A program made the position numbers and the translations under genes. A DNA stretch of 64,000 nucleotides, taken from assembly GCA_964504365.1 (NCBI GenBank), contig CAZDDW010000003.1:8031-72030 (forward strand). Reading direction: 5' to 3'. This stretch comes from an uncultured Gammaproteobacteria bacterium. GTDB lineage: Bacteria; Patescibacteriota; Patescibacteriia; UBA9934; CAZDDW01. Shown piece after piece: positions 23,160 through 62,153 of this stretch. Below the pieces are notes generated by a model, which saw nothing but the letters and a program-made list of their open reading frames with translations, was not told the origin of the DNA and ran no database searches. How positions within the stretch are numbered: the stretch's first letter is position 1; every line of letters starts with the position of its first letter.

Positions 23160-23187
23160 CCCCAACAGGCTTAAATAAGCTAAAAAG

Positions 23188-23215
23188 AAAAACCCGTTGC
23201 AAGCAACGGGCAGGG
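23188..23215 (-). terminator. terminator of the 23235..23920 gene
   Basis: cccgttgc-aag-caacggg hairpin followed by TTTTTCTTTTT on the minus strand. Confidence 0.5.
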
Positions 23216-23234
23216 CCTAGCCCCTAGAGTCGTT

Positions 23235-23920: not shown

Positions 23921-23973
23921 TCTGCCTTTCAACAGTAGAGCTGTTTAGTGAATGAACATTTTCGTAACGCAAA

Positions 23974-24002
23974 ATAATAGCATAAATAAGCCTAATTGTC
24001 AA
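23974..24002 (-). promoter_or_regulatory. consensus sigma70 promoter of the 23235..23920 gene
   Basis: The minus strand reads TTGACA attaggcttatttatgc TATTAT. Confidence 0.5.
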
Positions 24003-24029
24003 GGTAGTGAGCACAAAGCCGACGAACGG

Positions 24030-24062
24030 AAAAGACAAAACCGACGAACATTCGTCGGTTTT
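24030..24062 (-). terminator. fusA terminator
   Basis: Perfect hairpin ccgacgaa-ca-ttcgtcgg followed by TTTTGTCTTTT on the minus strand. Confidence 0.6.
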
Positions 24063-30260: not shown

Positions 30261-30983
30261 ATGTCGCTGGTATTCCAACCTCTTCCCAACGCGCTACTGG
30301 CCCTGGCCAAGCTGCCCCATGGCAGGATCATCGACGACGATGACAACACCTACACCATCATGCACGAAGGTGAGGCCGAAGCGGCCCTGGTCGCACTGAG
30401 CGAAGCTGGGTGCGACGAAGACATGGTCGAACTCATGCGCACCGAGCTGATCGCGCTCAACTTCCCAGCGGATCTAGGCGAGCTGATCCTGGCCCTGACC
30501 CAGGTCAACCTGGGCGATGACTTCGACCCGGGCGACCTGAGCTTCGAAATCTGCGAACCCGACGAGGACATCAAGGTGCCGCATGGCCAGATCATTCAGG
30601 ACGATCACCTCGCCGGCGCCTCGGCAATCACCAGCATGGAGCACGCGCTCTCCATCATGATGGTCGGTGCCAGGGATGGGTTCATTACCGCCGAACAGGG
30701 AATCTTCCTGCTCAAGCAAATGGCTGCGGCCGACCTGATGCTCACCCAGAAGCAAGTGCTGGCCCACCACGGCTACACCCGAGACACTGACGGCACCTAC
30801 CGCTCCGAGGCCCGGGACGGATCGACCAAAGTCGAAACGGCTACCCGGATCCTTCACATGGGACCGCTGACGATCCTCGTTTCCAGAATCGAGACCACCG
30901 AGATCGACGGCGAGGACGAGCCGCGCGACACGGTCGAGGATGACGAGGGCGGTGACAGCCCGACCGAGGGCGGCGGCTGGTAG
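30261..30983 (+). CDS. GC-rich hypothetical acidic protein
   Basis: Ribosome-binding site aaaggaga 6 nt before the ATG; promoter TTGACG, 17 nt, TACTCT upstream. High GC; no recognisable motif. Confidence 0.45.
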   Translation: MSLVFQPLPNALLALAKLPHGRIIDDDDNTYTIMHEGEAEAALVALSEAGCDEDMVELMRTELIALNFPADLGELILALTQVNLGDDFDPGDLSFEICEPDEDIKVPHGQIIQDDHLAGASAITSMEHALSIMMVGARDGFITAEQGIFLLKQMAAADLMLTQKQVLAHHGYTRDTDGTYRSEARDGSTKVETATRILHMGPLTILVSRIETTEIDGEDEPRDTVEDDEGGDSPTEGGGW

Positions 30984-31802: not shown

Positions 31803-32145
31803 ACATAAATATTCATATCATAAAAAAGAAGAAGCGTCGACCCGACACATCTTCTGGACCAGCTATGCTGGCCTGCCATCCGAAGCTTTAGCGAAGGATG
31901 GCGCTCCAGCCCGGCTGGGCTGCAATGGCTCTGTATCTATTACGGATATACCTTGCCAGGTTACGCACTGATCAGCCGCGAAGCCAATGAGAACGCTCTG
32001 ACAAGACGCGAACCGGTTGGACCTTGCTAAAAAGCTTGATCCGAATGTTTGAAAATTTGACCCATAGCAGTTACCAACCGTCTGAAGCCTTTATATTATA
32101 CCATTTTTTTGCTGTCTTTTGCGCTTTTCCGTATAAGTACGTATA

Positions 32146-32166
32146 AGAAAAAGAGGACAAGCTGTC
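32146..32166 (-). terminator. terminator of the 32169 gene
   Basis: agaggacaagctgtcctct hairpin followed by a T-run on the minus strand. Confidence 0.5.
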
Positions 32167-32168
32167 CT

Positions 32169-33042: not shown

Positions 33043-34383
33043 TTAGAGAGGCAGGAACACTCGACTGCGTCGTGTCTCGATCCGATGCAATCGATCGTGG
33101 TAGCGGTGACGAACACCCTCAGCCTGATCACGATTGGCACCCACAAAGAACAGAGTGGCCTTGCCTGAACCGCGCCAGCAGCCCGGATTACCAGGAACGA
33201 TTCCAGGACGATCCGTACCGTCATAGAGCATCCCATCGACCCGATGATGAATCAGGTCTTCGTGGCCCATACCCTTAGGTATTTCAGTGTTCTCCATAAC
33301 CACACTGCAACTGCCACCGAAACGCGGAGCAACCTGATCAGCGAACGAGCAGACATACTTGGCCGCAGTACCGCGACCATTGATCTCGATCACGTAGACA
33401 AAGACCATTCCGGCGAAACGGATGACCAACAGGTCGATCCCAATAGTCCGAACCATTTCCTGGTCTGGTTGACCGCCACGACCAACACCCCGTCGAACAG
33501 CTTCGTTGCAAAACGGAATGATTGCTCGCATGATCGCCTGGTAGACTTGTACATCGACCAAGAACTGACCGACCGAGACAATATTGCCCTTGTGGGCATT
33601 GCCTTCGGTGATCTGCTGCGTTAGTTTGAGCAGTTTCCAACCGCCCAAACCAACAGCCACCTGGGCGCTGATCTCAGTCATATCGAACATGTCAGCCGGA
33701 TAAGCCGCCTCGATCACCAGTTGCTTGTGGCCATGCTCGGCCAAGAACTGAGCCACCTCAGCAGGATCCGTTCCTGGACCAACGAGCAAGTTGCTTGCTC
33801 CCCCATCAGCACCTGGGTCCTTGAGCATGACCGAATCAGTCTCCAGAACTTCGGCCGCCTCAGCCAAAACTTGTTGACGCAAGCGATCGAAATCGCCTAG
33901 ATTGCGAAACATGCTCCGCCAGGCCGTGAAGTGACCAGCTGCACCAGGCAAGAGTCGAGCACTGAGCTTGTGATCGAACAGTTCTGCCAGGTTTGGCTCG
34001 ATCGCCGCAGTATCACGGAAGCGCAGACCAAGCATCTGGCGAACCAAGAAGCTCAGCCGCGGGGTGAACAAACTCAACGGCCTTCCCTGCGCAACAGATC
34101 GTTGCACCTGTTGCAGCTCATCAGCGTAGCGCAGCAATCCCCGGGTCAGGTCACCACCAGGAACGACCACTAGCTGGTCAGCCCCAAGCTCGATCTGACG
34201 CATGTAGGCAAAAGTATCTTCGATATCCAGACGCGTCCCCTGCGTATCGGCACCAGTCACAGTCATGCCTGGGCAGACCAGGCTCCGGCTGGCGTAGTTA
34301 GCCAACCCACCGATATCAATCCCGCGACTCCGAAACGGAGTCATGTCGTCTACGTTCGTCTGCAGCCGCGTGAATGCGTCCAC
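33043..34383 (-). CDS. GC-rich putative ATP-grasp family ligase
   Basis: VMLKDPGADGGASNLL resembles the ATP-grasp glycine-rich loop (compare glutathione synthetase VKPLDGMGGASI), and VFVYVIEINGRG resembles the E-x-N motif. Likely GTG start at VDAFTRLQ with ribosome-binding site aaagagggg. Confidence 0.4.
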   Translation of the reverse strand: MDAFTRLQTNVDDMTPFRSRGIDIGGLANYASRSLVCPGMTVTGADTQGTRLDIEDTFAYMRQIELGADQLVVVPGGDLTRGLLRYADELQQVQRSVAQGRPLSLFTPRLSFLVRQMLGLRFRDTAAIEPNLAELFDHKLSARLLPGAAGHFTAWRSMFRNLGDFDRLRQQVLAEAAEVLETDSVMLKDPGADGGASNLLVGPGTDPAEVAQFLAEHGHKQLVIEAAYPADMFDMTEISAQVAVGLGGWKLLKLTQQITEGNAHKGNIVSVGQFLVDVQVYQAIMRAIIPFCNEAVRRGVGRGGQPDQEMVRTIGIDLLVIRFAGMVFVYVIEINGRGTAAKYVCSFADQVAPRFGGSCSVVMENTEIPKGMGHEDLIHHRVDGMLYDGTDRPGIVPGNPGCWRGSGKATLFFVGANRDQAEGVRHRYHDRLHRIETRRSRVFLPL

Positions 34384-34634
34384 TGGTTTCCCCTCTTTGG
34401 TTAAAATGTGCACAAAACAAAACGACCTCACTCATGAGGCCGTCCCTGTTTACCAGATTATGTCTAAATAATCAAGAACGGCCTTATGAAATAAAGAGGT
34501 CAATAATAAGTCCTACGAACATGTCGCGGTCAACTTTTCCAATTTGTGTCGCAGGATAATTCATATCGAATGTAAATCTATCATACCTTATTTTTCCGGT
34601 CAAATTAAGGGGGGCTGTGGATAGTCGACCAGGC

Positions 34635-43478: not shown

Positions 43479-43604
43479 CCTTCTCATGCCACGCGCTGGG
43501 CAAGGCTCTCACAGGGTACTACGACCTCACCGGTCCTGGGCTCTACCAAATGGGACTTGATCCCTGATCCTTGTACTAGCGTCTACCACGAAAGGAGATG
43601 TGCC

Positions 43605-44900
43605 ATGAGTCGTGACGAAAAAGAAACCCCTCTTTCCAAATTCGTATCCACCCTGGGACGGCTATTGCCGAAGTTCGAACGCCGAGAGCTTCCGCTCTCA
43701 CGTTTGGACAACGCGCGCATGGCTCTGGATGGAGCAGCCGTCCCGCTTCCGAACAGCGCTGGACCGCAGCTACCGACCAAACTCTACGGCGGCGTCAACG
43801 AGGTCGCTCTGGCTGCTGATGGCACCAGATTCGTGACCGGAAAGCGACACGGGAGAAAAGGTGAAAAGGTCGTTCTCTTGAGGGCGATGCCGGGCAGCGA
43901 TCAGTTCGAAGAGGTCGACTCGGCACCGGTCATCGAGCGACTCTTCGTACCAGAAGGATCGAACAAGCCAGCCTACATGCGCGCCATCGAACGTGGTGTC
44001 AGCCATGCCGAGTGGGTCTGGAACGGCCTGACTCTGCCCGGCGACCAGAACGACATGGACACTCGCCCGCTGTTCTGGACCAATGATCAAGGGATCAACG
44101 GGGCCGTAATCACCAAGGGAAAGTTGTACGTGTGGCATTCCGGCCAGCGGCACATCGTTGGTCTTCCTCACCGATACAGAGAATACAAACCAACTCACAT
44201 CCAGCTCATCAGTAAAAGCCTGTTCCAGATCTGGGGTCTTCCAGCCCACCAGGATGTGGTTGTCTGGCGCGACAAGGTGGGTCCTGCGGGAATGTACATT
44301 GACCGTGAATCAGTAGTCAGGGGCGTCAACGCCGAGCCCTGGTTCTTGGCCCGAGCCAACGCTGCCCATGGCCCTGTCCACGTCTGCAACATGGACGGGC
44401 TAGAGCGGATGCTCGAACACAAGCCCGAGGGCATCTGGACCGCTCCTGGGAAGATCTTCGTCCTGGAAGAGACCCTGACTGGGCCCGACGGTCCGAGCTG
44501 TCGCGTCCATGAGGTCATCTCAGGCTGGAGTTCAGACTTGCTCGACCAGCAGGTCGAGCAAGTCTGGGCACTGAGTGGTCACTCCAGTGACATCGCCCTT
44601 CACAACCGAAACTCGGGAGTGCTGCGCTATCTGAGTGAAAGTAGCAGCGTCATCGGACAAGCACCGGCAATGTCACGCGCCAGTGTCCGACAGATGGGCA
44701 ACCTGTTCGTCTATCAGATCGGCGATACCTTCGCCTTCCTGAAAGACACCAACATCGAATTCTCAGCCCACAGAATTCCGCGACAAGAACTGGGGCTCGA
44801 ACATCTGGTGCTCATGAACGACGGGACGATCCAGGGCATAGTCAAATCCGGTACGAGTGTGGTGACGTATACCTTCTTCGATCCAAGCAAGCGCGCGTAA
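43605..44900 (+). CDS. GC-rich hypothetical protein (431 aa)
   Basis: Start at MSRDEKETPL with ribosome-binding site aaaggag; hairpin terminator cccccg-aacgact-cggggg plus T-run at 44905..44940; no recognisable motif. Confidence 0.45.
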   Translation: MSRDEKETPLSKFVSTLGRLLPKFERRELPLSRLDNARMALDGAAVPLPNSAGPQLPTKLYGGVNEVALAADGTRFVTGKRHGRKGEKVVLLRAMPGSDQFEEVDSAPVIERLFVPEGSNKPAYMRAIERGVSHAEWVWNGLTLPGDQNDMDTRPLFWTNDQGINGAVITKGKLYVWHSGQRHIVGLPHRYREYKPTHIQLISKSLFQIWGLPAHQDVVVWRDKVGPAGMYIDRESVVRGVNAEPWFLARANAAHGPVHVCNMDGLERMLEHKPEGIWTAPGKIFVLEETLTGPDGPSCRVHEVISGWSSDLLDQQVEQVWALSGHSSDIALHNRNSGVLRYLSESSSVIGQAPAMSRASVRQMGNLFVYQIGDTFAFLKDTNIEFSAHRIPRQELGLEHLVLMNDGTIQGIVKSGTSVVTYTFFDPSKRA

Positions 44901-47848: not shown

Positions 47849-47958
47849 TAATGACCAATGATCAATAACCAATTACCCAGATAATAATCAATGACCGAAT
47901 TTTCGAACATTGGTTATTTGGTAATTATTTTGATCATTGTTATTTGGTTATTGGTTAT
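47849..47958. repeat. ~110-bp AT-rich repeat copy A, built from inverted ATGACCAATGATCAATAACCAATTACC / GGTAATTATTTTGATCATTGTTATTTGGTTATTGG arms around TTCGAA
   Basis: About 85 percent identical to 61530..61641. The spurious plus-strand ORFs at 47891 and 61599 share the peptide IILIIVIWLLVILL. Sits between the infB stop and the trxA start. Confidence 0.7.
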
Positions 47959-47963
47959 TCTAC

Positions 47964-49994
47964 TTAGCGTTTTGAAACCCCTTCAATTTCAAGAACCTTT
48001 TTCTCTGCCTTTTCTGAATATAGTTCAAACACATCACCAGGCTCAGCTTTTACTTTTCCTTTATATTGAATACCACACTCCTGGTTCTTCAAAACCTCGC
48101 TGGTATCTTGTTTGTTGGCCTGGAGCTTAAGCATGATCGCCTCACCAATTATCTCATCTCCGCGCATCAGGCGCAACTTAGAATCTTTCAAAGCTGTACC
48201 TTCAATCACCTTAGCACCAATAATCCAACCGTTATCAGTCTTTTTAAAATTCATCAGCACTTCAACTTTACCAGTCTCTGTAACTACGATTTCCTCTGGC
48301 ATTAATTTTTCAAGACGTTCAACCATGTCTTCGAAAATCTTGTAAATAACCGAATTCTCCATGATTTCAACATTTTTATCACGAGCCAACTCCGCAGCCG
48401 TACCAGTTGGTTTAACACTAAAGGCGTAGATCACGGCCTTACTTGCCTCAGCTGCCAAAACCTCAGAGTCTGTCACATCTCCAAGACCCTTGTCCAAAAT
48501 CTTCACCTCAACGTGCGGATTTTTTTGCAGCTTCTCAATCATCCCAAGCAGTGCCTCCAAAGAACCAAGCACATCGGCTTTAATGATCATGGTCAAACAC
48601 GGCTTGGTCTGTTCCTCATCTTCAACAACAGGGGCAATCTTAGTCGCAGTAACCTCATCAATTGCAGCAGATTTAACTGTCTTGAACTTTGTTTTTTTCA
48701 AATCTTTTATATTTTCTGGAACTTCAATCACATCACCCACAGTTGGTGCAGCCTTGAAGCCAAGAACACGAACCGGGGTCGATGGTAATGCCTCTTTAAC
48801 ATTTTTATTCTGCCAATCTTGCATTGCCTTAACTTTTCCATAAAGCATGCCGCGCACACCAAGCGGATCACCAACGCGGAGTGTTCCAGTCTGAACCAAT
48901 GCAGTAACCACAGGCCCAGCACCTGGATCAATTTTAGAATCAATCACTGTTCCAATTGCTGTGCGTTCTGGATTGGCCACAATCTTTTCTTTTTCCATGT
49001 CAGCCACCAAAATCAACATGTCTAAAATATCGTCGATACCAATCTGTTTCTTTGCCGAAATTGGAACCATGATCGTATCCCCTCCCCAATCTTCTGGATT
49101 CAAACCTTTTTCTGCTAGCTGGCCTTTTACCATGTCAATATTCTGTTCCGCTTTGTCGATCTTGTTCAATGCAACAATAAAAGGCATGCCTGATGCCTTG
49201 ATAATATCAATTGCCTCGCGAGTCTGCGGCTGAATTCCATCGTCCACAGCAACAACCAAAATTGCAATATCAGCCACCTTGGCTCCACGCGAACGCATGA
49301 CCGTAAAAGCTTCATGTCCAGGAGTATCAATAAATGTCAGCTGTCGGTTCTTGCGCTCAACCTGATAAGCACCGATGTGCTGAGTAATTCCACCAGCCTC
49401 TTCGTCAACCACGTTAGTTGTTCTAATAGCATCAAGCAATTTGGTCTTTCCATGATCAACGTGTCCCATGACAACAACAACCGGAGGTCGCTCAACTGCA
49501 TCTTTTTTATCTTCCCCTTCCAAAATCTCACCAACTCGTTCTAGATCTGCCTCCTGTTCTTCATCTGGACTTTCCTCCTCAGCCTTAGCTTCAAACCCAA
49601 GGTCAGAAGCAATAATGGCTGCGGTTTCAAAATCGATCGTATCATTCAACGAGGCCAAGATTCCGGCCTTCATCAACTCTTGCATTACCTTGGCAACCGG
49701 CAATTCCAAACGTCCGGCAAATTCACGCACAGCAATTGTTGGCGGCAAAGCAACTGGCTTTTTTGGAGCCTGATCTTCTGCTCCAGCTCCGGCTGCTTGC
49801 TGCTGCTGGGCCTCACGTTTCATCTTCAGTCTCTGTCGTCGACGATACTCACCCCAAGCATTCATGATCTGATTAGCAATCCGATCATCAACCTTAATCG
49901 CTTTCTTTCCAATACTAAAACCGAGCTCAGGCAACTTCTCCCTAAGCTCTTCTGGGTTAACATTTAATCGTCGTGCTAGTTCAGTTACATTCAT
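47964..49994 (-). CDS. infB: translation initiation factor IF-2
   Basis: [16 protein letters not shown] and NKID motifs; C-terminal beta-barrels. Confidence 0.9.
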   Translation of the reverse strand: MNVTELARRLNVNPEELREKLPELGFSIGKKAIKVDDRIANQIMNAWGEYRRRQRLKMKREAQQQQAAGAGAEDQAPKKPVALPPTIAVREFAGRLELPVAKVMQELMKAGILASLNDTIDFETAAIIASDLGFEAKAEEESPDEEQEADLERVGEILEGEDKKDAVERPPVVVVMGHVDHGKTKLLDAIRTTNVVDEEAGGITQHIGAYQVERKNRQLTFIDTPGHEAFTVMRSRGAKVADIAILVVAVDDGIQPQTREAIDIIKASGMPFIVALNKIDKAEQNIDMVKGQLAEKGLNPEDWGGDTIMVPISAKKQIGIDDILDMLILVADMEKEKIVANPERTAIGTVIDSKIDPGAGPVVTALVQTGTLRVGDPLGVRGMLYGKVKAMQDWQNKNVKEALPSTPVRVLGFKAAPTVGDVIEVPENIKDLKKTKFKTVKSAAIDEVTATKIAPVVEDEEQTKPCLTMIIKADVLGSLEALLGMIEKLQKNPHVEVKILDKGLGDVTDSEVLAAEASKAVIYAFSVKPTGTAAELARDKNVEIMENSVIYKIFEDMVERLEKLMPEEIVVTETGKVEVLMNFKKTDNGWIIGAKVIEGTALKDSKLRLMRGDEIIGEAIMLKLQANKQDTSEVLKNQECGIQYKGKVKAEPGDVFELYSEKAEKKVLEIEGVSKR

Positions 49995-50499: not shown

Positions 50500-51156
50500 A
50501 TGAATAACTTTTTGTTAATAGATAAACCAGCTGGGATGACTTCGCATGATGTTATTGATCAGGTACGTCAGATCACTGGCGAGCGCAGGGTTGGGCATGC
50601 TGGCACACTGGATCCATTTGCTACCGGACTCTTAATCGTAGCTGTAGGACGAGACTCGACCAAGAAGCTGAGTGAATATGTTGGTTTAGACAAAGAGTAC
50701 GAAGCAGTTTTTGTTTTGGGAATGCGCTCTGAGACTGATGATCCTGAAGGACCAGTCGCACCCAGCGAAACCGACCGAGATATCACCCGCGAAGAAATCG
50801 AAACAGCGATGCAGAAATTCATCGGTCAGATCGAACAAGTTCCACCGAAATATGCTGCGATCAAAGTTGGCGGTCGAAAGCTTTACCAAGCCGCACGTGC
50901 AGGTCAGGAGATCGAACGCAAACCCCGCTCAGTCAAGATCGACGAGTTTGAATTGCTCGATACTTCAGAAGACAATCACAAATTAACTGTACGTATCAAA
51001 TGCGGATCCGGAACATACATCCGCGCCCTTGCACGAGACCTTGGTGACGAACTAGGCGTTGGCGGATACGTTGAGCAACTTCGCAGAACCAAAATCGGAG
51101 AATACAAAATCGAAAACGCAAAAACTTTAGAGCAAATAAAAAATGGGTCCAATTAG
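50500..51156 (+). CDS. truB: tRNA pseudouridine(55) synthase
   Basis: LLIDKPAGMTSHDV and GHAGTLDPFATGLL. Confidence 0.85.
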   Translation: MNNFLLIDKPAGMTSHDVIDQVRQITGERRVGHAGTLDPFATGLLIVAVGRDSTKKLSEYVGLDKEYEAVFVLGMRSETDDPEGPVAPSETDRDITREEIETAMQKFIGQIEQVPPKYAAIKVGGRKLYQAARAGQEIERKPRSVKIDEFELLDTSEDNHKLTVRIKCGSGTYIRALARDLGDELGVGGYVEQLRRTKIGEYKIENAKTLEQIKNGSN

Positions 51157-51172
51157 GACCCGAGAAGTGAGA

Positions 51173-51565
51173 CTAGAATTCGTCAGGGGAGACCAAGTGC
51201 TGCAAAGAGGCATAGACCGTCTGAATTGCCCCGATCGTCTCAGGATCCTTCAAAACCTCGAAAAGCTTGTCCAAGGGAATACCTTGGCTTTTGCACAGCA
51301 TGATCAGCCTGGTCAGGCTGGAAGCTTGAGACATCATCAAGATAGAAAAACAGGACTCTCGATCTACCCCCATGCTCTCGGCGATACCGTCGAGCAAGGT
51401 CATCAGGTGGTCAGGCAGAGAAATCCAGTTCCCCTCTCGCGACAGAGAATCCTGGTAGACATTTGCCAGATATTCTTCGACCGTGATTCCACGAGCTGCG
51501 GCAGCCTCGACTGCTTGCGCGTGAAATTCATCTTCGACCTCGATTTCGATAGTGACTCGTGGCAC
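51173..51565 (-). CDS. GC-rich hypothetical protein whose N-terminus looks like a ribbon-helix-helix fold
   Basis: GTG start with ribosome-binding site gaaggga; N-terminus VTIEIEVEDEFHAQAVEAAAARGITVEEYLANV (strand plus two helices); convergent with truB. Confidence 0.35.
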   Translation of the reverse strand: MPRVTIEIEVEDEFHAQAVEAAAARGITVEEYLANVYQDSLSREGNWISLPDHLMTLLDGIAESMGVDRESCFSILMMSQASSLTRLIMLCKSQGIPLDKLFEVLKDPETIGAIQTVYASLQHLVSPDEF

Positions 51566-51923
51566 GATATATCCCTTCTGAAGGTGCTACGAGTAGTCTA
51601 TCAGCACCTCACAAACTGTCAAGAATACAAATTAGCTAAACTCCCCTACAAAACCCTCCCACCCCTTGTCAGCCTCCTCTATATATGCTAGTCTGAGCAA
51701 TGTAATTAATGAAAATTCTTGAAGGCTGGGAGTATACGAAAGGCACTGAACCGAGCGCACCTGGAAGAAACACCTCTATGACGTTTAAATTTTCTCTCTT
51801 AAAACTTCTGTTCGGTCAAGTTGAACCCGAACATAAGCCACAATCTAACGTCAGAGCTTAAGGACAGCGGTCCTAAATTTTTCGTAACTCAGACCTTCGG
51901 ATCTGAATATTTTAATATAATAT

Positions 51924-55276: not shown

Positions 55277-56551
55277 CTATTTCTTGTTTACAAAACTTTT
55301 TACTTCTTTAACGATCTGGTCGATCTTAACTAAACTGAATTCTTTGTTGGTTCGTTCTTTCCACTCAACAGAATCCTCAGCCAAGGTCTTTTCTGATACA
55401 ACTAAACGCAATGGAATTCCGATCAAGTCAGCATCACCAAATTTCTCACCAGGTGACATGCCTTCACGATCATCCCACAATACTTCGATTCCAGATTTTT
55501 CTAGATCATTATGTAAAGCAGACGCAACATCGTTGATTCGTGATACAACGGCCTCGTCTTTAGAACTCAGAGAAATAATCTCAACTGCATATGGAGCAAT
55601 CGACTTTGGCCAGATCATTCCTCGATCATCATGCGATACCTCAACCACAGCACCCATTACACGTGAAGGGCCGATTCCGTAAGAACCCATAACAATCTGT
55701 TGACTCTCCCCTTTTTCATCCTTCATGCTCATCTTGTTAGCGTCTGTGAACTTGGTTCCTAGCGGGAAAATATTTCCAACCTCGATTGACTTCATCTCTT
55801 CTACTTTACCACCACAATCCTTTGGACAAGCATCGCCATCTTTACCATCAAAGATCTCCTTGTTCCAAGCGTAGTCACAGCCTTCACAGAAGTAAATTGT
55901 GTCCTCACCAGATTCTGTTGGGGTTTGGAACTCATGCGAGTCCTTTGAAAAGTCGCCACCTGAAGCTTCGGTGTAAATGGCCCGGATTCCAATGCGATCA
56001 AAAACTTTTCGATAAGCATCAGCGGATTTCAAATAAAACTCAGCACGATCTTCTTCTGACAAATGAAAACTGTAAAAGTCCTTCATTGAGAACTCGCGTC
56101 CACGCAACAACCCAGACTTAGCCCGAGCCTCGTTGCGGAACTTGTCCTGAACCTGATACAAGAAGACTGGAAAGTCCTTATACGAATTCACGTACTGTTT
56201 AACCAGCGGCGTAATCACGTCCTCATGAGTCAAACCAAGACAATAGTCCTTGTCACCATGACCTTTCAGTTTGAACATGACGTCGATAGTATCCCAGCGA
56301 CCAGTTGTGGTCCAAGGTTCTTTTGGTTGAAGTGCTGGCAAATAAACCTCTTGTCCACCAATGGCTTCCATTTCCTCGCGAACAATATCTTGAATCTTTT
56401 TCAAGACCCGCAAACCAAGCGGCAGGTACGAGAAAATCCCAGCAGCGAGTTGATTTATAAATCCAGCCTGAAGCAAGAGCTGAGCATTGGCTGAATCAGC
56501 ATCAGCCGGCTTCATCTTATTGGTCTTACCAAATAGTTTTGAATATTTCAT
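55277..56551 (-). CDS. proS: prolyl-tRNA synthetase, short form without the INS editing domain
   Basis: Class II motifs with a zinc-binding C-terminal domain (FCEGCDYAWN..CPKDCGG); 424 aa. Confidence 0.85.
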   Translation of the reverse strand: MKYSKLFGKTNKMKPADADSANAQLLLQAGFINQLAAGIFSYLPLGLRVLKKIQDIVREEMEAIGGQEVYLPALQPKEPWTTTGRWDTIDVMFKLKGHGDKDYCLGLTHEDVITPLVKQYVNSYKDFPVFLYQVQDKFRNEARAKSGLLRGREFSMKDFYSFHLSEEDRAEFYLKSADAYRKVFDRIGIRAIYTEASGGDFSKDSHEFQTPTESGEDTIYFCEGCDYAWNKEIFDGKDGDACPKDCGGKVEEMKSIEVGNIFPLGTKFTDANKMSMKDEKGESQQIVMGSYGIGPSRVMGAVVEVSHDDRGMIWPKSIAPYAVEIISLSSKDEAVVSRINDVASALHNDLEKSGIEVLWDDREGMSPGEKFGDADLIGIPLRLVVSEKTLAEDSVEWKERTNKEFSLVKIDQIVKEVKSFVNKK

Positions 56552-56642
56552 ACGCCGCTTATGGTACCAAGATAGGCTAATTTATTCAAGGCTTGACCTT
56601 GCGCTGTCCATGTGCTTAAATAGCCGCACAAGGGAGAACATC

Positions 56643-56936
56643 ATGTTCCAAAAACTCGCAAAAAATACCTGGTTGCTCCTGCTGGCCATTGCTGGACTGG
56701 CAACTATCCTCGTCATCAAGATCGAAAATCCTTTCGTGTTGGCGATAGGCTCTTATTACCTGTTCTATGGCGTGATCCATTTGATGGGCAAGACCTTGCC
56801 CCTGTTCACTGACAAACACCGCAGATCGAAAGCTGCTCCGATCAAGCTTGTCGCCAGCCCGCTCGCAACGCTTTTCCTGTTCGCTACCGGAGCTTGCCTG
56901 ATCTACTTCTACCACTTCCCACTCTCGGCTTCGTAG
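56643..56936 (+). CDS. small membrane protein (97 aa, 2-3 transmembrane helices)
   Basis: Ribosome-binding site gggag, hydrophobic helices, and hairpin terminator gcgcc-tcact-ggcgc followed by seven T's immediately after. Confidence 0.45.
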   Translation: MFQKLAKNTWLLLLAIAGLATILVIKIENPFVLAIGSYYLFYGVIHLMGKTLPLFTDKHRRSKAAPIKLVASPLATLFLFATGACLIYFYHFPLSAS

Positions 56937-56942
56937 CCACCT

Positions 56943-57025
56943 CGCGCCTCACTGGCGCTTTTTTTGTTGGCTAAACAGACCGCCGACCAATAAAAAACCG
57001 GCCCTGGAAAGGGTCGGTGCTGTGT
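56943..57025. terminator. convergent terminator module A: plus-strand hairpin plus T7, then a minus-strand hairpin (ccgaccc-tttcca-gggccgg plus T6)
   Basis: Homologous to module B at 58048..58150 (shared GCGCC.ACTGGCGCTTTTTTTGTTGGC...AGACCGC.GACCAA...AAAAAA). Confidence 0.55.
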
Positions 57026-57045
57026 GAAGTAAGGAACGATGGTAA

Positions 57046-57711
57046 CTACTCAGAGTCGCTTTTCTGGGCCTGTCTCATCATGTACATGGCCAAGCCCTCA
57101 CGTTCGAAGGCCTGCAGGATCTTCTCAGCGTGGTCTAGAGCTGTACGTCGTTTGTCGACCCACATCCTAACCAGACAGAAAACCTGGTACGCAATCTGTT
57201 GCCCGTCTTCCTCGGTCTTGGCACAGATCTCAGACAACGGAGTCTCTTTGACAGTCACCTTGACCGCACGGTCATAGCCATGATCACACACGAAGTCGAC
57301 TCTGACCAAGACCCAGCGAGCCGTCCGCGTCAGCCCCCAAAAATGATGACACCCTGTCTCCTGGTCATCAGCGATAACCGTACCTAGGTTGCGGCTCCGT
57401 GACACAAAGAGGCCCTTGCTCTTCAGGCTCGAGACTCCATCAACCGAAGACACCAACTCGGGCTCATCATCCTCAATCTTGTGCTGGGACGAAGAGCTTC
57501 CGCCCCCCTTCTCGCCTTTGAGACACCTGACACCGCCCAGGCTCCAGAGCTTGATGTTTCTCTCCAGGTCTGGAGCAAGGACCCTGGCTCTTGCCTCCAG
57601 GATGACGGCCCAGTCCTCCTCGGTTACAGGTTCACGACGGGCCAGCTGTCTTTGTCCAACTGACAATGCTTCCAAATACTCCTCATAGGAGTCGAATCCT
57701 GGCACGGGCAT
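57046..57711 (-). CDS. GC-rich hypothetical protein (222 aa)
   Basis: Start at MPVPGFDSYEEYLE with a perfect ribosome-binding site aaaggagg and a terminator downstream; no recognisable motif. Confidence 0.45.
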   Translation of the reverse strand: MPVPGFDSYEEYLEALSVGQRQLARREPVTEEDWAVILEARARVLAPDLERNIKLWSLGGVRCLKGEKGGGSSSSQHKIEDDEPELVSSVDGVSSLKSKGLFVSRSRNLGTVIADDQETGCHHFWGLTRTARWVLVRVDFVCDHGYDRAVKVTVKETPLSEICAKTEEDGQQIAYQVFCLVRMWVDKRRTALDHAEKILQAFEREGLAMYMMRQAQKSDSE

Positions 57712-57866
57712 ACCCGGCCTCCTTTCGTCACCCAAAGGGCAAACCCAATGGTGATATTAACTTACTACAATATATAAATCCCATCAAATGTATCATCAGC
57801 ACCTGGTGCAACTCGGCGCTTTTTTCTTTGTCTGATTTCATGCTATGCTAAATACAAGGAGGATTA

Positions 57867-58034
57867 ATGGGAGAGAAATCGAATCTTTGGACAGAATTCA
57901 AGGAATGGCTTGGAGGAGACGCTTTGTTCTTTCTCCGCCTCGCCTTCATCGTTCTTTGCCTCTGGGCCCTCGTACCGTTCGTCTTCGCATTCTTGGAAAC
58001 ACTCTTTGGCGGAAGCACTTCGCAATCCTGAGAC
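57867..58034 (+). CDS. small membrane protein (55 aa: MGEKSNLWTEFKEWLGGDALFFLRLAFIVLCLWALVPFVFAFLETLFGGSTSQS)
   Basis: Translated by hand; ribosome-binding site aaggagg 4-5 nt before the ATG, one transmembrane helix, followed directly by terminator module B. Not in the ORF track because it is shorter than 60 aa. Confidence 0.45.
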
Positions 58035-58047
58035 AATTCCTTCCGCC

Positions 58048-58150
58048 TTGCGCCACCTGGCGCTTTTTTTGTTGGCCGAATAGACCGCTGACCAACAACC
58101 CGCCCGAAGCTTTAGCGAAGGCGGGTCATTCAATAAAAAATCGGCCAGGA
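58048..58150. terminator. terminator module B (gcgcc-acct-ggcgc plus T7), containing an inserted CGAAGCTTTAGCGAAGG-loop hairpin and a minus-strand hairpin
   Basis: Duplicate of module A, with an extra hairpin cccgcCCGAAGCTTTAGCGAAGGcgggt at 58100..58128. Confidence 0.55.
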
Positions 58151-58380
58151 CGACCGATGTGTCTGTGTCGGGCAATCCGACAAACAAGGCAGATGAGATC
58201 AGGAATGTCATGAGAAAGAACAGGAGCAGGACCAGACAAAGAACAACAGCCCAAGCAGACTTTCTGGTCACAGCAAGTGCAGTAAACAATCCGGACAGGA
58301 AAGAGCTAGCCGCAATCATTAGAAACAAGATCATCATTTCCTCCAAAACCAACCTTACACCAACCCGCTAGAAAAGAAAA

Positions 58381-58405
58381 ATCCCTCGTTGCCGAGGGGC
58401 GATGA
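58381..58405 (-). terminator. terminator of the 58434 gene
   Basis: ccctcg-ttgc-cgaggg hairpin followed by ATTTTTCTTTT on the minus strand. Confidence 0.5.
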
Positions 58406-58433
58406 GGGACAGGTCCAATCAAGGGCGATCGGA

Positions 58434-58640
58434 CTAGATGGGCTTGTACTGCCAGCCCTGCCGTTCGCAGAACTCGGCCACCGAGACAGAGCCCTCGCGG
58501 AGTCGTTGGTGCAGTTCGTCGGCCTCGTCAGCCGGGATCACGGGCGGGCGAGTCGGATTGCCCTGGTCGTCGAAGAAACGGATCGGATGTGTGCGTGCGT
58601 TGGATGCTGGACCGGCTTCCCAGTCGGGTTTGGCCATACT
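58434..58640 (-). CDS. GC-rich small hypothetical protein (about 68 aa)
   Basis: ATG preceded by ribosome-binding site aggagg with 5 nt spacing; sequence MAKPDWEAGPASNARTHPIRFFDDQGNPTRPPV...; terminator downstream. Confidence 0.4.
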   Translation of the reverse strand, partial: SMAKPDWEAGPASNARTHPIRFFDDQGNPTRPPVIPADEADELHQRLREGSVSVAEFCERQGWQYKPI

Positions 58641-58717
58641 CACCTCCTAATTAGACCATATCATTATTTTACCAAAAATAAAAATCCGACCAGGTGGTCG
58701 GAATGAGTACGTGCGGT

Positions 58718-59149
58718 CTAGGCGCTTGCAGGTACGGCAGCGGGTGGGACCAGGCGGAAGATGCGTGCAGCGAAGATCGAGCAACTGTGAGCAAAGACCC
58801 TTGCTACACCACTCTTCTGGCTGACCGCGACCAGTGGGCTACCTGCCCTATAGCTGATCCAGGGTCCGGGCTTCATCATCTTCGCCGGAATCTCGTGCTC
58901 GGCACCTTCGGCGTAGGCGGGCAGGAGCTGATCATCTTGCTCGGCCATCCTGCGTACGAGCACGGTTCGCCAGGAACGATCGTCAGACCACACCTGGAGC
59001 TGCTCACCGATCGTTCCCTCTCGCGGGAATTCGATGCTGTCCGTCTGGACTGGAGCTTCTCCGGTTCGATCCTCGAAATATCGTCTGTCGTTTTCGCGTT
59101 CTCCCGTGTCTCCCATGAGAACGAACACTCCGACCGGCTGACTACTCAT
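58718..59149 (-). CDS. GC-rich hypothetical protein (about 144 aa)
   Basis: Start at MSSQPVGVFVLMGDTGE with ribosome-binding site aaggagg. Confidence 0.45.
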   Translation of the reverse strand: MSSQPVGVFVLMGDTGERENDRRYFEDRTGEAPVQTDSIEFPREGTIGEQLQVWSDDRSWRTVLVRRMAEQDDQLLPAYAEGAEHEIPAKMMKPGPWISYRAGSPLVAVSQKSGVARVFAHSCSIFAARIFRLVPPAAVPASA

Positions 59150-59229
59150 GAGGCCTCCTTGCTGTCGTAGCTCACGACTAAAAGATCTTGCCACAAAAAC
59201 CTGATACTGTCAATTCCTGGTATTTCAGG

Positions 59230-59258
59230 TTGACATTTATCAAGAAATATAGTATATT
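59230..59258 (+). promoter_or_regulatory. sigma70 promoter upstream of tRNA-Lys (TTGACA, 17 nt, TATATT)
   Basis: TTGACA tttatcaagaaatatag TATATT lies about 15 nt before the tRNA 5' end. Confidence 0.5.
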
Positions 59259-59273
59259 TGCGACCACAAGTAT

Positions 59274-59350
59274 GCCCCGTTAGCTCAGCCCGGTAGAGCA
59301 GTTGGCTCTTAACCAAACGGTCGCAGGTTCGAGTCCTGCACGGGGCACCA
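59274..59350 (+). tRNA. tRNA-Lys (anticodon CUU), CCA encoded
   Basis: Hand-folded cloverleaf: acceptor GCCCCGT/ACGGGGC, D arm GCTC/GAGC, anticodon loop CTCTTAA, T arm GCAGG-TTCGAGT-CCTGC, discriminator A, then CCA. Confidence 0.8.
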
Positions 59351-59473
59351 GCCGTCGCTTCATCAGATCATTTATTGATGGCGCGACGGCTGCCCTTCGA
59401 AGCCTCGGCGAAGAAGGGCCGTGAATAAGATTGTGATGAAGCTATGGCTGGCAGGCCATGCTAATCACAGTAT

Positions 59474-59550
59474 GCAGGCGTAGCTCAGTTGGATAGAGCG
59501 TCTGGCTTCGGACCAGAAGGTCGGGGGTTCGAGCCCTCCCGCCTGTACCA
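59474..59550 (+). tRNA. tRNA-Arg (anticodon UCG), CCA encoded
   Basis: Acceptor GCAGGCG/CGCCTGT (G1-U72 wobble), anticodon stem TCTGG/CCAGA with loop CTTCGGA, T arm GGGGG-TTCGAGC-CCTCC. Confidence 0.8.
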
Positions 59551-59552
59551 AA

Positions 59553-59580
59553 AAACCACCGAATTACCGGTGGTTTTTTG
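59553..59580 (+). terminator. terminator after the tRNA pair
   Basis: ccaccg-aatta-ccggtgg hairpin followed by six T's. Confidence 0.6.
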
Positions 59581-59651: not shown

Positions 59652-60263
59652 ATGGGCGAACTGACCAGAGACGAAGTCATTAACTGTTTTCGTGATTACT
59701 ATCAAGGTACTGTATACGCCTCAACAACAAACCAGATTGCCGCACGGGCAATGCAGAATGACTATTCCGGCAACACTCTTTACGAAAAAATTCTCAGTTG
59801 GCTTTCTCAATCTGATCAGGATCGTTCAATTTCATTGATCGAACTGACTATTGCCCATGACGTTCATACTCAACTTCTGGAAGACGATGACAAAGTCCAG
59901 GCTGAAAGGCTTGAAAGACTACTCCGTATTCGAGCAGGACTGATCGGAAATAGAACGGTAATAAACCCCACAGAGATCATTCTGGCCACTGAGCAAATCT
60001 CCCAGGCTTTAGATGACCTTCGACGAGAACAACGAATCGAAAGCTTTTTCAAAAAGCTGGATCAGTTGAAACAGATCTTGGGAACAGACGACCCAGAGAA
60101 GCTCGCGCAAGCCTGCCACTTACCAGCCGAGGTCGTCAAGACGGTCATCCTCCGACACGCCGAGGACCCGAATTATTGCCCTCACTACTTCATACTGACC
60201 ATGCTTTTCACAGCTGTCCGAACCGGTCTCAGAGAACCAGTAGCTAGTGTCCAAGAGACCTAA
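59652..60263 (+). CDS. hypothetical protein
   Basis: 203 aa, helical and acidic; hairpin terminator cccacatc-acgacg-atgtgggg plus T-run at 60266..60295. Confidence 0.45.
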   Translation: MGELTRDEVINCFRDYYQGTVYASTTNQIAARAMQNDYSGNTLYEKILSWLSQSDQDRSISLIELTIAHDVHTQLLEDDDKVQAERLERLLRIRAGLIGNRTVINPTEIILATEQISQALDDLRREQRIESFFKKLDQLKQILGTDDPEKLAQACHLPAEVVKTVILRHAEDPNYCPHYFILTMLFTAVRTGLREPVASVQET

Positions 60264-61529: not shown

Positions 61530-61641
61530 AATGACCAATGATCAATAACCAATTACCGAGATAATGATCAATAATCGAATTTTCGAACATTAGATCATTT
61601 GGTCATTATCTTGATCATTGTTATTTGGTTATTGGTTATTC
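61530..61641. repeat. ~110-bp AT-rich repeat copy B
   Basis: Matches 47849..47958; lies between the nusB stop and the rnc start. Confidence 0.7.
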
Positions 61642-62153
61642 TTCTCTTCCTCCTTGACCTCCGGTTTCTTTTCTTCTTTATTTTCTTTATCCTTATCTTT
61701 CTTTGGTGGCTCTTTATCAACTGCCTTTTCTTCTCCATGAGCGATCATGTGTTTATAAATAGCACCAAGTACACCGTTAACAAATCGACCAGATGCTTCA
61801 CCACCAAAACCTTTAGCCAACTCAATCGCTTCATTAATCGCCACCTTAGAAGGTACTTTCTCAGAAAACTTTAACTCGTAAGTTCCTAAACGCAACACAT
61901 TGCGATCTACTATAGTTATAGTATCCAAAGGCCAGTCAGGGGCAAAGTGAGTAATCAACTCATCAATATCTTTCTGATTTTTTAAAACTCCCTCAACAAG
62001 CTCAGAAATAAAACCACCGTCATCAAACTGCGGTGCGAATTCTTGTTTACTGTACTCCATCAAATCTGGAATACTATCTTTTGATTGTCCGGCAAAGTCC
62101 CATTGATACAATGTTTGCAAAGCAATGGTTCGAGCCAAGTGTCGATTAGACAT
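61629..62153 (-). CDS. nusB: transcription antitermination factor NusB with a lysine-rich C-terminal tail
   Basis: MSNRHLARTIALQTLYQWDF, with a KDKDKENKEEKK tail. Confidence 0.8.
   Translation of the reverse strand: MSNRHLARTIALQTLYQWDFAGQSKDSIPDLMEYSKQEFAPQFDDGGFISELVEGVLKNQKDIDELITHFAPDWPLDTITIVDRNVLRLGTYELKFSEKVPSKVAINEAIELAKGFGGEASGRFVNGVLGAIYKHMIAHGEEKAVDKEPPKKDKDKENKEEKKPEVKEEEKNNQ

What the first reader, a model, noticed from the sequence alone, without database searches (positions are those of the whole stretch)
56643..59550. Cluster of small GC-rich genes with duplicated terminator modules next to a tRNA-Lys/tRNA-Arg pair
Between proS and the two tRNAs lie several units. There are two unrelated small membrane proteins on the plus strand (97 aa and 55 aa; the 55-aa one is missed by the ORF track). 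Each is followed by a homologous ~60-100 bp terminator module (GCGCC.ACTGGCGC plus seven T's, GTTGGC...GACCAA, A-run, then a minus-strand hairpin). A third degenerate copy of that terminator lies at about 57796..57830. There are also three GC-rich minus-strand genes (222, about 68 and about 144 aa), all with perfect AGGAGG ribosome-binding sites. The region is GC-rich, modular, and tRNA-adjacent, which is typical for integrated accessory DNA, yet no integrase is present. The small membrane proteins paired with GC-rich soluble partners could be toxin/immunity-like or a signalling module.
Basis: partly seen in the sequence, partly recalled or inferred. Interest (0 to 1): 0.6.

Follow-up and report, generated by a model that had tools for sequence, protein, structure and literature searches.

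The report
Variable orphan-gene islet beside tRNA genes
A 2.5-kb stretch between the proline-tRNA synthetase gene and two tRNA genes of an uncultured Uhrbacteria (candidate phyla radiation) bacterium holds six small, separately transcribed genes with no known relatives, sitting at a spot whose gene content differs from species to species; it is an ordinary kind of accessory-gene hotspot, not a recognisable mobile element or toxin system.

Summary
Each has its own ribosome-binding site and intrinsic terminator. A 54-nt terminator core occurs twice at about 85% identity. The second copy also carries a 38-nt inserted hairpin element. GC is 0.53 against a 0.43-0.46 backbone, and GC3 is 0.55-0.75 against 0.35-0.43.

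The organism is Candidatus Uhrbacteria. In relatives, nusB-rnc-(queH)-tRNA pair-...-proS-HU-rny is conserved, but the tRNA-to-proS gap runs from 45 bp to 7.2 kb with different contents. A and B matched only themselves in the big-database searches. None of A-D has a counterpart in the relatives' loci. F and E recur next to tRNA-Lys in a few close lineages, diverge fast (44-64% identity) and show purifying selection (omega about 0.3).

There is no integrase, no att-like tRNA repeat and no phage, plasmid, defence or toxin-antitoxin match. The best reading is a flexible orphan-gene islet at a conserved hotspot. Protein functions remain unknown.

A side finding is that the inserted hairpin belongs to a widespread, unannotated palindromic element.

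The parts
56643..56936 (+). Gene A: 97-aa protein with 2-3 membrane helices; orphan gene
   Evidence: ORF with a GGGAG ribosome-binding site and a TTGACC-17-TTAAAT promoter-like site. GC1/2/3 is 0.48/0.38/0.67 and the hydropathy is membrane-like. A terminator follows directly. It finds only itself among 5.8 billion proteins. Some annotations call the antisense 99-aa ORF instead.
56937..57018 (.). Terminator module T1. It comprises the (+) hairpin 56944-56958 with T7, a 25-nt spacer GTTGGC..GACCAA at 56966-56990, and the (-) hairpin 57018-56997 with TTTTTATT that terminates B.
57046..57711 (-). Gene B: 221-aa soluble protein; strict orphan gene
   Evidence: AGGAGG lies 7 nt before the ATG. GC1/2/3 is 0.60/0.41/0.66. 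It finds only itself in the 5.8-billion-protein database. There is no family, PDB, phage or IMG/VR match. The AF2 model has pLDDT 41.
57802..57835 (+). Degenerate terminator-like remnant in the B/C divergent intergenic region
   Evidence: 74% identical to T2 over 34 nt. The hairpin is weak and the fold z-score is +0.9.
57867..58031 (+). Gene C: 54-aa protein with one membrane helix
   Evidence: AAGGAGG ribosome-binding site. GC1/2/3 is 0.51/0.42/0.58 and there is one strong hydrophobic segment. Terminator T2 follows. Only one public gene call exists for it.
58043..58158 (.). Terminator module T2. It comprises the (+) hairpin 58050-58063 with T7, the spacer 58071-58095, the inserted hairpin element 58096-58133, and the (-) hairpin 58158-58140 with TTTTTATT that terminates D.
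58096..58133 (+). 38-nt palindromic hairpin element (cccgccCGAAGCTTTAGCGAAGgcggg) inserted into T2 and flanked by CAA/CAA
   Evidence: It is absent from T1. Further copies lie at 31881 and 59398 in the window, in other Uhrbacteria and in more than 120 viral contigs with covarying stems.
58167..58337 (-). Gene D: membrane protein with two helices (57 aa shown). The open frame runs on without a stop to 57864 (156 aa), crossing its own terminator, T2 and the antisense of C.
   Evidence: GGAGG ribosome-binding site. The membrane part has coding-like GC1/2/3 of 0.46/0.39/0.56, while the tail is flat at 0.54/0.46/0.54. NCBI, ENA and JGI gene calls give 156-157 aa.
58373..58398 (-). Intrinsic terminator after E
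58434..58637 (-). Gene E: 67-aa proline-rich soluble protein, conserved partner of F
   Evidence: AGGAGG ribosome-binding site. A 44%-identical homologue follows the F homologue in L099. The third codon position is the least conserved and omega is about 0.33.
58685..58702 (-). Intrinsic terminator after F; also conserved in L099
58718..59149 (-). Gene F: 143-aa soluble, beta-rich protein; a small fast-evolving family
   Evidence: AGGAGG ribosome-binding site. Homologues are P0003 (64%), P0004/L099 (48%) and L013:8969-9337 (28-38%). An exhaustive profile search finds nothing else. Omega is about 0.3.
59150..59273 (.). Divergent promoter region. It contains the F promoter (TTGACA 59213-59208, CAAGAT 59190-59185, on the minus strand) with a 5'UTR hairpin; the tRNA-Lys promoter TTGACA-17-TATATT at 59230-59258 (+); and the relic palindromic double -35 TTGATAAATGTCAA.
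   Evidence: The 206-nt stretch covering this region and tRNA-Lys (59147-59351) is 91% identical to L099.
59274..59580 (+). tRNA-Lys(ctt), a 123-nt spacer with three hairpins (the middle one is a copy of the palindromic element), tRNA-Arg(tcg), and a terminator
59652..60263 (+). Gene G: 203-aa orphan gene between tRNA-Arg and queH. It belongs to the same variable slot but lies outside the finding's coordinates.
   Evidence: It is absent from all relatives' loci. Family hits are only sub-threshold.

Best explanation
The region is a lineage-specific flexible gene islet. It occupies a conserved recombination hotspot between the tRNA-Lys/tRNA-Arg pair and proS in a Candidatus Uhrbacteria (Patescibacteria/CPR) genome.

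Layout. It holds six single-gene transcription units, or seven counting G on the other side of the tRNAs. Each has a strong Shine-Dalgarno site and its own intrinsic terminator. The genes are arranged as convergent pairs, A-> <-B and C-> <-D, followed by E and F.

Role of the duplicated module (inferred). The 'duplicated terminator module' is a back-to-back terminator pair that was copied locally. Its job is to stop convergent transcripts running into each other or into proS and the tRNAs. The second copy later received a 38-nt mobile palindromic hairpin.

Origin (inferred). The genes come from a GC-richer gene pool than the backbone. They were gained and exchanged by ordinary recombination in the conserved flanks, not by a site-specific integrase. 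In the process tRNA-Arg was displaced from its ancestral place opposite tRNA-Lys.

Age of the parts. F and E are the older residents: real, expressed-looking, fast-evolving proteins kept beside tRNA-Lys in several lineages. A, B, C and D are private to this population.

Function (inferred only). Three small membrane proteins and three small soluble proteins serve as strain-specific accessory functions at the cell envelope or in host or phage interaction.
For: Shown:
- Organism and synteny.
- Interval length 45 bp (L019) or 97 bp (L017, a complete chromosome) up to 7.2 kb (L013), with unrelated contents.
- None of A-G is found in about 70 relatives' loci, except F and E.
- A and B are singletons among 5.8 billion proteins. 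The F family has 3-4 members even by exhaustive hmmsearch.
- F-E sit next to tRNA-Lys in L099, with the promoter, 5'UTR and ribosome-binding site about 90% identical while the proteins are 48% and 44% identical.
- Codon-position pattern and omega of about 0.3 for F and E.
- GC3 of 0.55-0.75 against 0.35-0.43.
- Perfect AGGAGG at 4 of 7 island genes against 4 of 70 low-GC3 ORFs (a rough count).
- Terminators after every gene: 19 found against 7.3 expected in 54-61 kb.
- Module duplication is significant.
- Relatives have a divergent tRNA pair around TTGACnnnnGTCAA. The window keeps that palindrome, but F sits where tRNA-Arg used to be.
- No integrase, att repeat, phage, plasmid or defence match.
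Against: - No expression data exist, so the promoters and terminators are pattern matches only.
- A, C and D have no homologues, so their reality as genes rests on ribosome-binding sites, hydropathy and codon-position GC. Public annotations disagree on A (sense against antisense) and on C against a long D.
- D has no stop codon before its terminator.
- High GC persists in F and E across diverged lineages. That fits a long-resident family with its own composition at least as well as horizontal transfer.
- No donor was identified.
- In many relatives the slot holds ordinary genes (ABC transporter, AstE-like). The hotspot therefore partly reflects plain rearrangement.
Confidence: 0.6

Rival explanations
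1. Toxin/immunity or toxin-antitoxin modules. On this reading the small membrane proteins (A, C, D) are toxins or immunity proteins paired with soluble partners (B, E, F). Alternatively C is a type I toxin controlled by an antisense transcript from D.
For: A, C and D are short and hydrophobic. C and D converge, and the D frame overlaps C on the antisense strand. The genes sit in a variable islet and evolve fast.
Against: There is no hit to any toxin-antitoxin, defence, bacteriocin or immunity family. The partners are not co-transcribed: two terminators lie between each convergent pair, and F and E are separated by a terminator plus a promoter in both the window and L099. A, B, C and D are not conserved as pairs anywhere.
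Confidence: 0.12
2. Decayed remnant of a tRNA-targeting integrative element or prophage that has lost its integrase.
For: The islet lies next to tRNA genes, has atypical GC, and consists of orphan genes with strong ribosome-binding sites.
Against: No 10-11-nt or longer repeat of either tRNA lies near the islet. The islet abuts the 5' promoter side of tRNA-Lys rather than a tRNA 3' end. There is no similarity to 50,697 phage genomes or to IMG/VR, at DNA level for the islet and at protein level for B and F. No PHROG hits were found.
Confidence: 0.08
3. Native, vertically inherited, fast-evolving (possibly newly arisen) lineage-specific genes rather than acquired DNA. On this reading the high GC is a property of this gene class in these genomes.
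For: F/E keep the same position, promoter and high GC in at least three lineages, and an F-like gene lies upstream of proS in L013, whose genome GC is 0.42. At least five other GC-rich orphan genes are scattered through the same window between core genes.
Against: A GC3 excess of 0.2-0.4 is hard to maintain without a foreign source. A-D are absent from the close relative L099. The contents of the slot turn over between species.
Confidence: 0.2

Closest known systems
Flexible genomic islets or hypervariable regions at conserved, often tRNA-adjacent, hotspots in streamlined bacteria (for example the genomic islands of Prochlorococcus and the hypervariable regions of SAR11; from my own knowledge, and see the titles listed)
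   Same: The flanks are conserved and syntenic. The content is variable, lineage-specific and mostly of unknown function. Composition is atypical. The site is next to tRNA genes. The genes are small and membrane- or surface-biased.
   Different: It is very small (2.5 kb, six genes). There is no integrase, transposase or att repeat. The insertion lies on the promoter side of the tRNA. Every gene is its own transcription unit with its own terminator. The organism is a CPR bacterium.
Classical tRNA-integrated genomic islands or prophage remnants
   Same: Next to tRNA genes, with atypical GC and accessory genes.
   Different: It lacks all defining parts that were tested: integrase, direct repeat of the tRNA 3' end, location at the tRNA 3' end, and mobility genes.
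Bidirectional intrinsic terminators between convergent genes
   Same: A GC hairpin with a U-run on each strand lies within about 80 nt between convergent stop codons.
   Different: Here the whole module, including the 25-nt spacer that is presumably not transcribed, has been duplicated at about 85% identity between two unrelated gene pairs.
REP/MITE-like and Rickettsia-palindromic-element-like short palindromic repeats (this applies to the inserted hairpin only)
   Same: It is a short palindrome in many dispersed copies, mostly intergenic and after genes. One copy is inserted in frame inside a protein gene (queH of L013). A possible 3-nt target duplication flanks the T2 copy.
   Different: The conserved part is the apical 16-18 nt (GAA/GAA internal loop plus a CUYG or UUUA loop), while the stem varies with compensatory changes. 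It is found across phyla and in GC-rich viral contigs. No associated transposase is known. It is not in Rfam.

Membership tests
tRNA-integrated genomic island / integrative element | A tyrosine or serine integrase (or other mobility gene) within or next to the island | tested here: not met
   Pfam, NCBIfam and PHROGs scans of A-G give no integrase or recombinase. The neighbours are proS, queH, rnc and nusB.
tRNA-integrated genomic island / integrative element | A direct repeat of the tRNA 3' end (attL/attR) bounding the island, with the island downstream of the tRNA 3' end | tested here: not met
   No match of 10-11 nt or more to either tRNA lies anywhere near the islet. The islet adjoins the tRNA-Lys promoter.
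Flexible genomic islet / hypervariable hotspot | Conserved syntenic flanks with variable content between related genomes | tested here: met
   nusB-rnc-(queH)-tRNA pair ... proS-HU-(ymdB)-rny is found in more than 20 Uhrbacteria loci. The gap is 45 bp to 7.2 kb with unrelated genes.
Flexible genomic islet / hypervariable hotspot | Composition or codon usage that differs from the backbone | tested here: met
   GC is 0.53 against 0.43-0.46, and GC3 is 0.55-0.75 against 0.35-0.43.
Flexible genomic islet / hypervariable hotspot | Presence/absence polymorphism within the population | tested here: inconclusive
   All 18 population contigs are colinear and over 99.6% identical. Many contigs break inside the islet, but none shows an alternative junction.
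Integron cassette array (CALIN) | attC sites (57-141 nt, R''/L''-L'/R' with GTTRRRY cores) after each cassette; promoterless cassettes all in one orientation | tested here: not met
   By inspection of the sequence, GTTGGCY...GACCAA spans only 25 nt and both cores mismatch the consensus. The genes face both ways and carry their own promoter-like sites and terminators.
Type II toxin-antitoxin / known defence systems | A two-gene operon with a recognisable toxin or antitoxin (or defence) domain | tested here: not met
   There are no Pfam, NCBIfam or PADLOC hits for A-F. Terminators separate every gene.
Type I toxin-antitoxin | A small hydrophobic toxin with an overlapping antisense RNA | tested here: inconclusive
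   C (54 aa, one membrane helix) converges with D. Whether they overlap depends on read-through of T2, and no RNA data are available.
Rho-independent terminators | A GC-rich hairpin followed directly by a U-run downstream of a stop codon | tested here: met
   The pattern scan finds one after each of A, B, C, D, E, F and tRNA-Arg, and the folds agree. Function was not measured.
REP/MITE/RPE-like palindromic repeats (hairpin element) | Many dispersed copies of a short palindrome, with evidence of insertion | tested here: met
   Three copies occur in the window against 0.24 expected. Copies are in five other Patescibacteria loci and one Omnitrophota locus and in more than 120 viral contigs. There is an insertion in T2 relative to T1 and an in-frame insertion in queH of L013.
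REP/MITE/RPE-like palindromic repeats (hairpin element) | An associated transposase (RAYT/TnpA) or terminal inverted repeats with a target-site duplication | not tested
   Only a possible CAA/CAA duplication at the T2 copy was seen. No search for a transposase was made.

The most novel reading that the evidence does not exclude
Two readings remain open.

(1) F-E may be a new, very narrowly distributed pair of fast-evolving proteins. They are driven from what used to be half of a bidirectional tRNA promoter, and they are kept for a host- or phage-interaction role specific to this Uhrbacteria lineage.

(2) The more novel reading concerns the 38-nt hairpin in T2. It may belong to an undescribed, cross-phylum family of mobile palindromic elements or structured RNA motifs: a conserved GAA/GAA internal loop with a CUYG-type tetraloop on a covarying stem. 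Copies occur in CPR bacteria, in Omnitrophota and in many GC-rich viral contigs, and the element can insert in frame into genes.
Probability: 0.3. Interest if true: 0.55.

Novelty: new member of a known kind. Interest (0 to 1): 0.3.

Why it matters
CPR bacteria have tiny genomes and few recognisable mobile elements, so how they gain and exchange accessory genes is poorly understood. This locus is a clean example of gene turnover without an integrase, at a conserved tRNA/proS junction. The ancestral state can be reconstructed: a divergent tRNA pair sharing a palindromic promoter.

The locus also shows that orphan genes with foreign-looking composition can persist and evolve fast under selection. 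As it stands this is descriptive, because no function is assigned. The unannotated palindromic hairpin element may be of wider interest than the islet itself.

Tried and rejected
- Family scans of A-G (Pfam, NCBIfam, PHROGs, PADLOC) gave nothing above threshold. G's SAVED and SngB hits are sub-threshold and were dismissed.
- PDB sequence searches for B, F and E gave nothing.
- AlphaFold2 models of F (3-sequence alignment, pLDDT 36) and B (single sequence, pLDDT 41) were too poor for a fold search, so none was run.
- Metagenome-collection scans for F relatives and for the terminator module found nothing. They are uninformative, because that collection did not return even the source population's own contigs.
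- A viral scan for the terminator module gave eight chance hits with no extended similarity.
- Phage-genome and IMG/VR searches with the islet DNA, B and F found nothing.
- The att-site search found nothing.
- The integron attC reading of GTTGGC..GACCAA was rejected on length and core mismatches.
- An A-like identity for the 63-aa membrane gene of L099 was not supported at protein level. Only its stop-codon/terminator region resembles T1.
- Contig break points inside the islet were examined as a sign of population variants, but every contig is colinear with the window.
- The hairpin-bearing viral contigs were tested as donors of the GC-rich orphan genes; they hold no homologues.
- A literature search for the hairpin sequence gave no paper. 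The plasmid search found nothing, and the cultured-phage search gave only partial, chance-level matches.

Full report
WHAT IS THERE

The window comes from an uncultured Candidatus Uhrbacteria (Patescibacteria/CPR) population. Its proS protein is encoded identically on 14 marine or aquatic metagenome contigs. The 18 contigs retrieved through proS and through F are over 99.6% identical and colinear with the window. The nearest species representatives are Uhrbacteria MAGs with 55-87% ProS identity.

Reading from proS (55277-56551, minus strand), the sequence shows the following features:
- A (+, 97 aa).
- Terminator module T1.
- B (-, 221 aa).
- A divergent intergenic region that contains a weak terminator-like remnant.
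- C (+, 54 aa).
- Terminator module T2.
- D (-, two membrane helices).
- A terminator, then E (-, 67 aa).
- A terminator, then F (-, 143 aa).
- A divergent promoter region.
- tRNA-Lys(ctt), a 123-nt hairpin-rich spacer, tRNA-Arg(tcg) and a terminator.
- G (+, 203 aa), then queH, rnc and nusB.

B, C, E and F carry perfect AGGAGG sites 4-7 nt before the ATG. D has GGAGG and A has GGGAG. In a rough count, only 4 of 70 low-GC3 ORFs in the window reach a perfect AGGAGG, even when the best start is chosen for each.

The terminator scan finds 19 sites in 54-61 kb against 7.3 +/- 2.8 expected. One follows each of these genes.

CHECKING THE OBSERVATION

The duplicated module is real.
- The 42-nt stretches 56952-56993 and 58057-58098 are 88% identical.
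- By my count from the alignment, the whole core (56937-56990 against 58043-58095) is about 85% identical.
- A further 16 nt are 94% identical.
- The local alignment scores 67 against 14 +/- 2 for shuffles.
- The 20-mer and 25-mer cores occur exactly twice in the window, where 0.01 or fewer are expected.

Each module is a back-to-back pair of intrinsic terminators for a convergent gene pair. On the plus strand there is a GCGCC-loop-GGCGC hairpin followed by T7. A 25-nt spacer follows. On the minus strand there is a hairpin followed by TTTTTATT.

The spacer lies between the two predicted termination points and is as conserved as the hairpins. This looks like plain co-duplication rather than a separate functional site (inference).

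I treat it as a decayed remnant at best.

Its frame has no stop codon until 57864. It therefore runs through its own terminator, through T2 and across the antisense of C, and the tail has a flat codon-position profile. By my reading of the sequence, both other frames have a TGA exactly at the terminator's T-run. D is therefore either a frameshifted gene or a 156-aa product, as the public annotations call it. I cannot decide between these.

T2 is longer than T1 because of a 38-nt insertion (58096-58133), discussed below.

GC is 0.53 in the islet against 0.458 for the window and 0.43 for proS. GC3 is 0.55-0.75 against 0.35-0.43 in the backbone genes.

COMPARISON WITH RELATIVES

The order nusB-rnc-(queH)-[tRNA-Lys(ctt), tRNA-Arg(tcg)]-...-proS-(lipoprotein)-HU-(ymdB)-rny recurs across Uhrbacteria.

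The distance from the tRNA pair to proS varies widely: 45 bp in L019, 97 bp in L017 (a complete 1.0-Mb chromosome), about 1 kb in L031, 2.5-3.3 kb in several loci, and up to 7.2 kb in L013.

The contents also differ: ABC-transporter genes, an AstE-like gene, and unrelated orphan genes.

None of A-G has a tblastn, phmmer or profile match in about 70 such loci, with two exceptions:
- An F-like gene lies just upstream of proS in L013. It is 28% identical in a pairwise BLASTP (E 1e-8), its GC is 0.55 in a genome of GC 0.42, and it has its own AGGAGG site and terminator.
- F and E homologues are present in L099/L100.

In the large protein databases:
- B and A find only themselves.
- F finds one 64%-identical protein, P0003.
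- An exhaustive profile search of 1.84 billion representatives adds only P0004.

L099, the contig that carries P0004, shows the following:
- tRNA-Lys.
- A promoter, 5'UTR hairpin and ribosome-binding site. The 206-nt stretch from tRNA-Lys to the F start is 91% identical to the window.
- F' (48% amino-acid identity).
- The same terminator.
- E' (44% identity).
- A terminator.
- A hairpin-rich spacer.
- On the opposite strand, an unrelated 63-aa protein with two membrane helices. Its stop codon and terminator resemble T1.

Nucleotide similarity collapses exactly at the F start codon.

For both F and E the third codon position is the least conserved. Among codons that differ at one position, the synonymous-to-non-synonymous ratio gives an omega of about 0.3. 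These are therefore real protein-coding genes under purifying but relaxed selection, and they are GC-rich in every lineage.

The P0003 contig has called genes of 167 (+), 68 (+), 97 (-) and a cut 55 aa (+). That looks like F-E-(a 97-aa gene)-proS without B, C and D.

HOW THE LOCUS AROSE (INFERENCE)

In most relatives tRNA-Lys and tRNA-Arg are divergent. They share a palindromic double -35 element, TTGACnnnnGTCAA.

The window and L099 still have TTGATAAATGTCAA next to tRNA-Lys. On its other side now lie a new TTGACA-17-CAAGAT promoter and gene F. tRNA-Arg sits behind tRNA-Lys as a tandem pair, and the spacer between them shows no promoter-like site.

The islet therefore occupies the former position of tRNA-Arg, on the 5' side of tRNA-Lys. 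That is the opposite of what integrase-mediated insertion into a tRNA 3' end produces.

Consistent with that:
- No match of 10-11 nt or more to either tRNA lies near the islet.
- No integrase or other mobility gene is present.
- There is no similarity to cultured phage genomes or to IMG/VR contigs.

WHAT IT MOST LIKELY IS

It is a small flexible gene islet at a conserved hotspot. It is made of single-gene cassettes insulated by terminators.

The duplicated module is a copied bidirectional terminator. Its role is to end convergent transcripts and to shield proS and the tRNA operon (inferred from the anatomy; no RNA data).

The composition and the unusually strong ribosome-binding sites point to a GC-richer source for these genes. 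F and E, however, have kept their place and their composition through considerable divergence. I therefore give real weight (0.2) to the rival that these are long-resident, fast-evolving lineage-specific genes.

The toxin/immunity idea has nothing in its favour beyond the small hydrophobic proteins. There are no family hits. The supposed partners are convergent genes separated by two terminators, and F and E are separated by a terminator and a promoter in both lineages.

Protein function remains unknown. Structure prediction failed for B and F (pLDDT 41 and 36), and PDB searches were empty.

THE INSERTED HAIRPIN

The 38-nt insertion in T2 is cccgccCGAAGCTTTAGCGAAGgcggg. It has two more copies in the window: the middle hairpin of the tRNA spacer (59398) and a 366-nt intergenic region (31881). 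That is 3 hits against 0.24 expected.

Copies with the same apical sequence but different, still complementary, stems occur in L011, L013, L031 and L099. A covariance model adds weaker copies in L013, in L015 (33 nt after tRNA-Arg) and in an Omnitrophota MAG.

In L013 one copy sits inside queH as an in-frame insertion of about 27 residues.

The 18-nt core pattern hits more than 120 IMG/VR contigs, whose median GC is 0.62. In 107 unique hits, taken without selecting for a stem, two flanking positions covary:
- Pair (11,30) is paired in 79% of sequences against 45% in shuffles.
- Pair (8,33) is paired in 81% against 55%.

The pair types seen at these positions include GC, TA, CG and AT.

The element is not in Rfam. 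I found no paper holding the sequence, and it is absent from cultured phages and from PLSDB plasmids.

It looks like a small mobile palindromic element, or a structured RNA motif, that has not been described. I followed it only this far.

VERDICT

The 'accessory DNA' reading is supported by synteny and composition. The tRNA-integration and toxin/immunity readings are not supported.

This is a new example of a known kind of feature, of modest interest. The side observation, the hairpin element, may deserve its own study.

Noticed in passing
window 58096-58133, 59386-59425, 31869-31908; L011:9837-9876, L013:126-165, L013:15623-15662, L015:3841-3880, L031:2215-2254, L047:7669-7709, L099:1020-1059; more than 120 IMG/VR contigs (L109 onward): This is an unannotated palindromic hairpin element. 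It has a variable, covarying 5-7-bp stem, a GAA/GAA internal loop, a 2-bp GC step and a CUYG or UUUA loop (core CCGAAGCYTNRGCGAAGG). It occurs in Uhrbacteria, in an Omnitrophota MAG and in many GC-rich viral contigs. One copy is inserted in frame in queH of L013. It is not in Rfam, and no paper holds the sequence.
   Followed up: partly
window 21798-24038, 30261-30983, 33043-34431, 43557-44900, 51143-51691: Other GC-rich orphan genes (GC 0.54-0.64, GC3 0.56-0.85, no Pfam hit) are scattered between core genes of a genome with about 0.43 GC. High-GC orphan genes seem to be a genome-wide feature, not special to the proS/tRNA locus. They have no match in the relatives' loci or in the hairpin-bearing viral contigs that were fetched.
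   Followed up: partly
window 31803-32168: A 366-nt GC-rich intergenic region contains several hairpins, including one copy of the palindromic element. It has no Rfam match and could be a non-coding RNA or a pile-up of palindromic elements.
   Followed up: no
window 61530-61645 and about 47850-47965 (L001:14678-14792): A 116-nt stretch is repeated at 91% identity in two places: at the rnc/nusB junction, and next to infB about 14 kb away.
   Followed up: no
window 59351-59473: The spacer between tRNA-Lys and tRNA-Arg folds into three strong hairpins (-61.9 kcal/mol, z = -6.6). In most relatives the two tRNAs are instead divergent around a palindromic double -35 box, TTGACnnnnGTCAA.
   Followed up: partly
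L099:930-1010: Three perfect 7-bp hairpins with CTTTAG or CTAAAG apexes (GGAAGGCTTTAGCCTTCC, GACAAACTTTAGTTTGTC, GACACACTAAAGTGTGTC) lie in the convergent intergenic region after E'. Two of them form an 85%-identical 54-nt inverted repeat.
   Followed up: no
window 56616-56915 (-) and 57864-58337 (-): Public annotations disagree here. NCBI and ENA call the 99-aa ORF antisense to A, together with a 156-aa D that overlaps C. JGI calls A. C is called only once, in a Logan assembly.
   Followed up: partly
L011:4782-4944 compared with window about 51.7-51.9 kb: The closest species representative (ProS 87% identical) has tRNA-Val and tRNA-Gly after rny, where the window has a 182-aa orphan gene. Its contig also breaks inside proS, so the islet side cannot be compared.
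   Followed up: no
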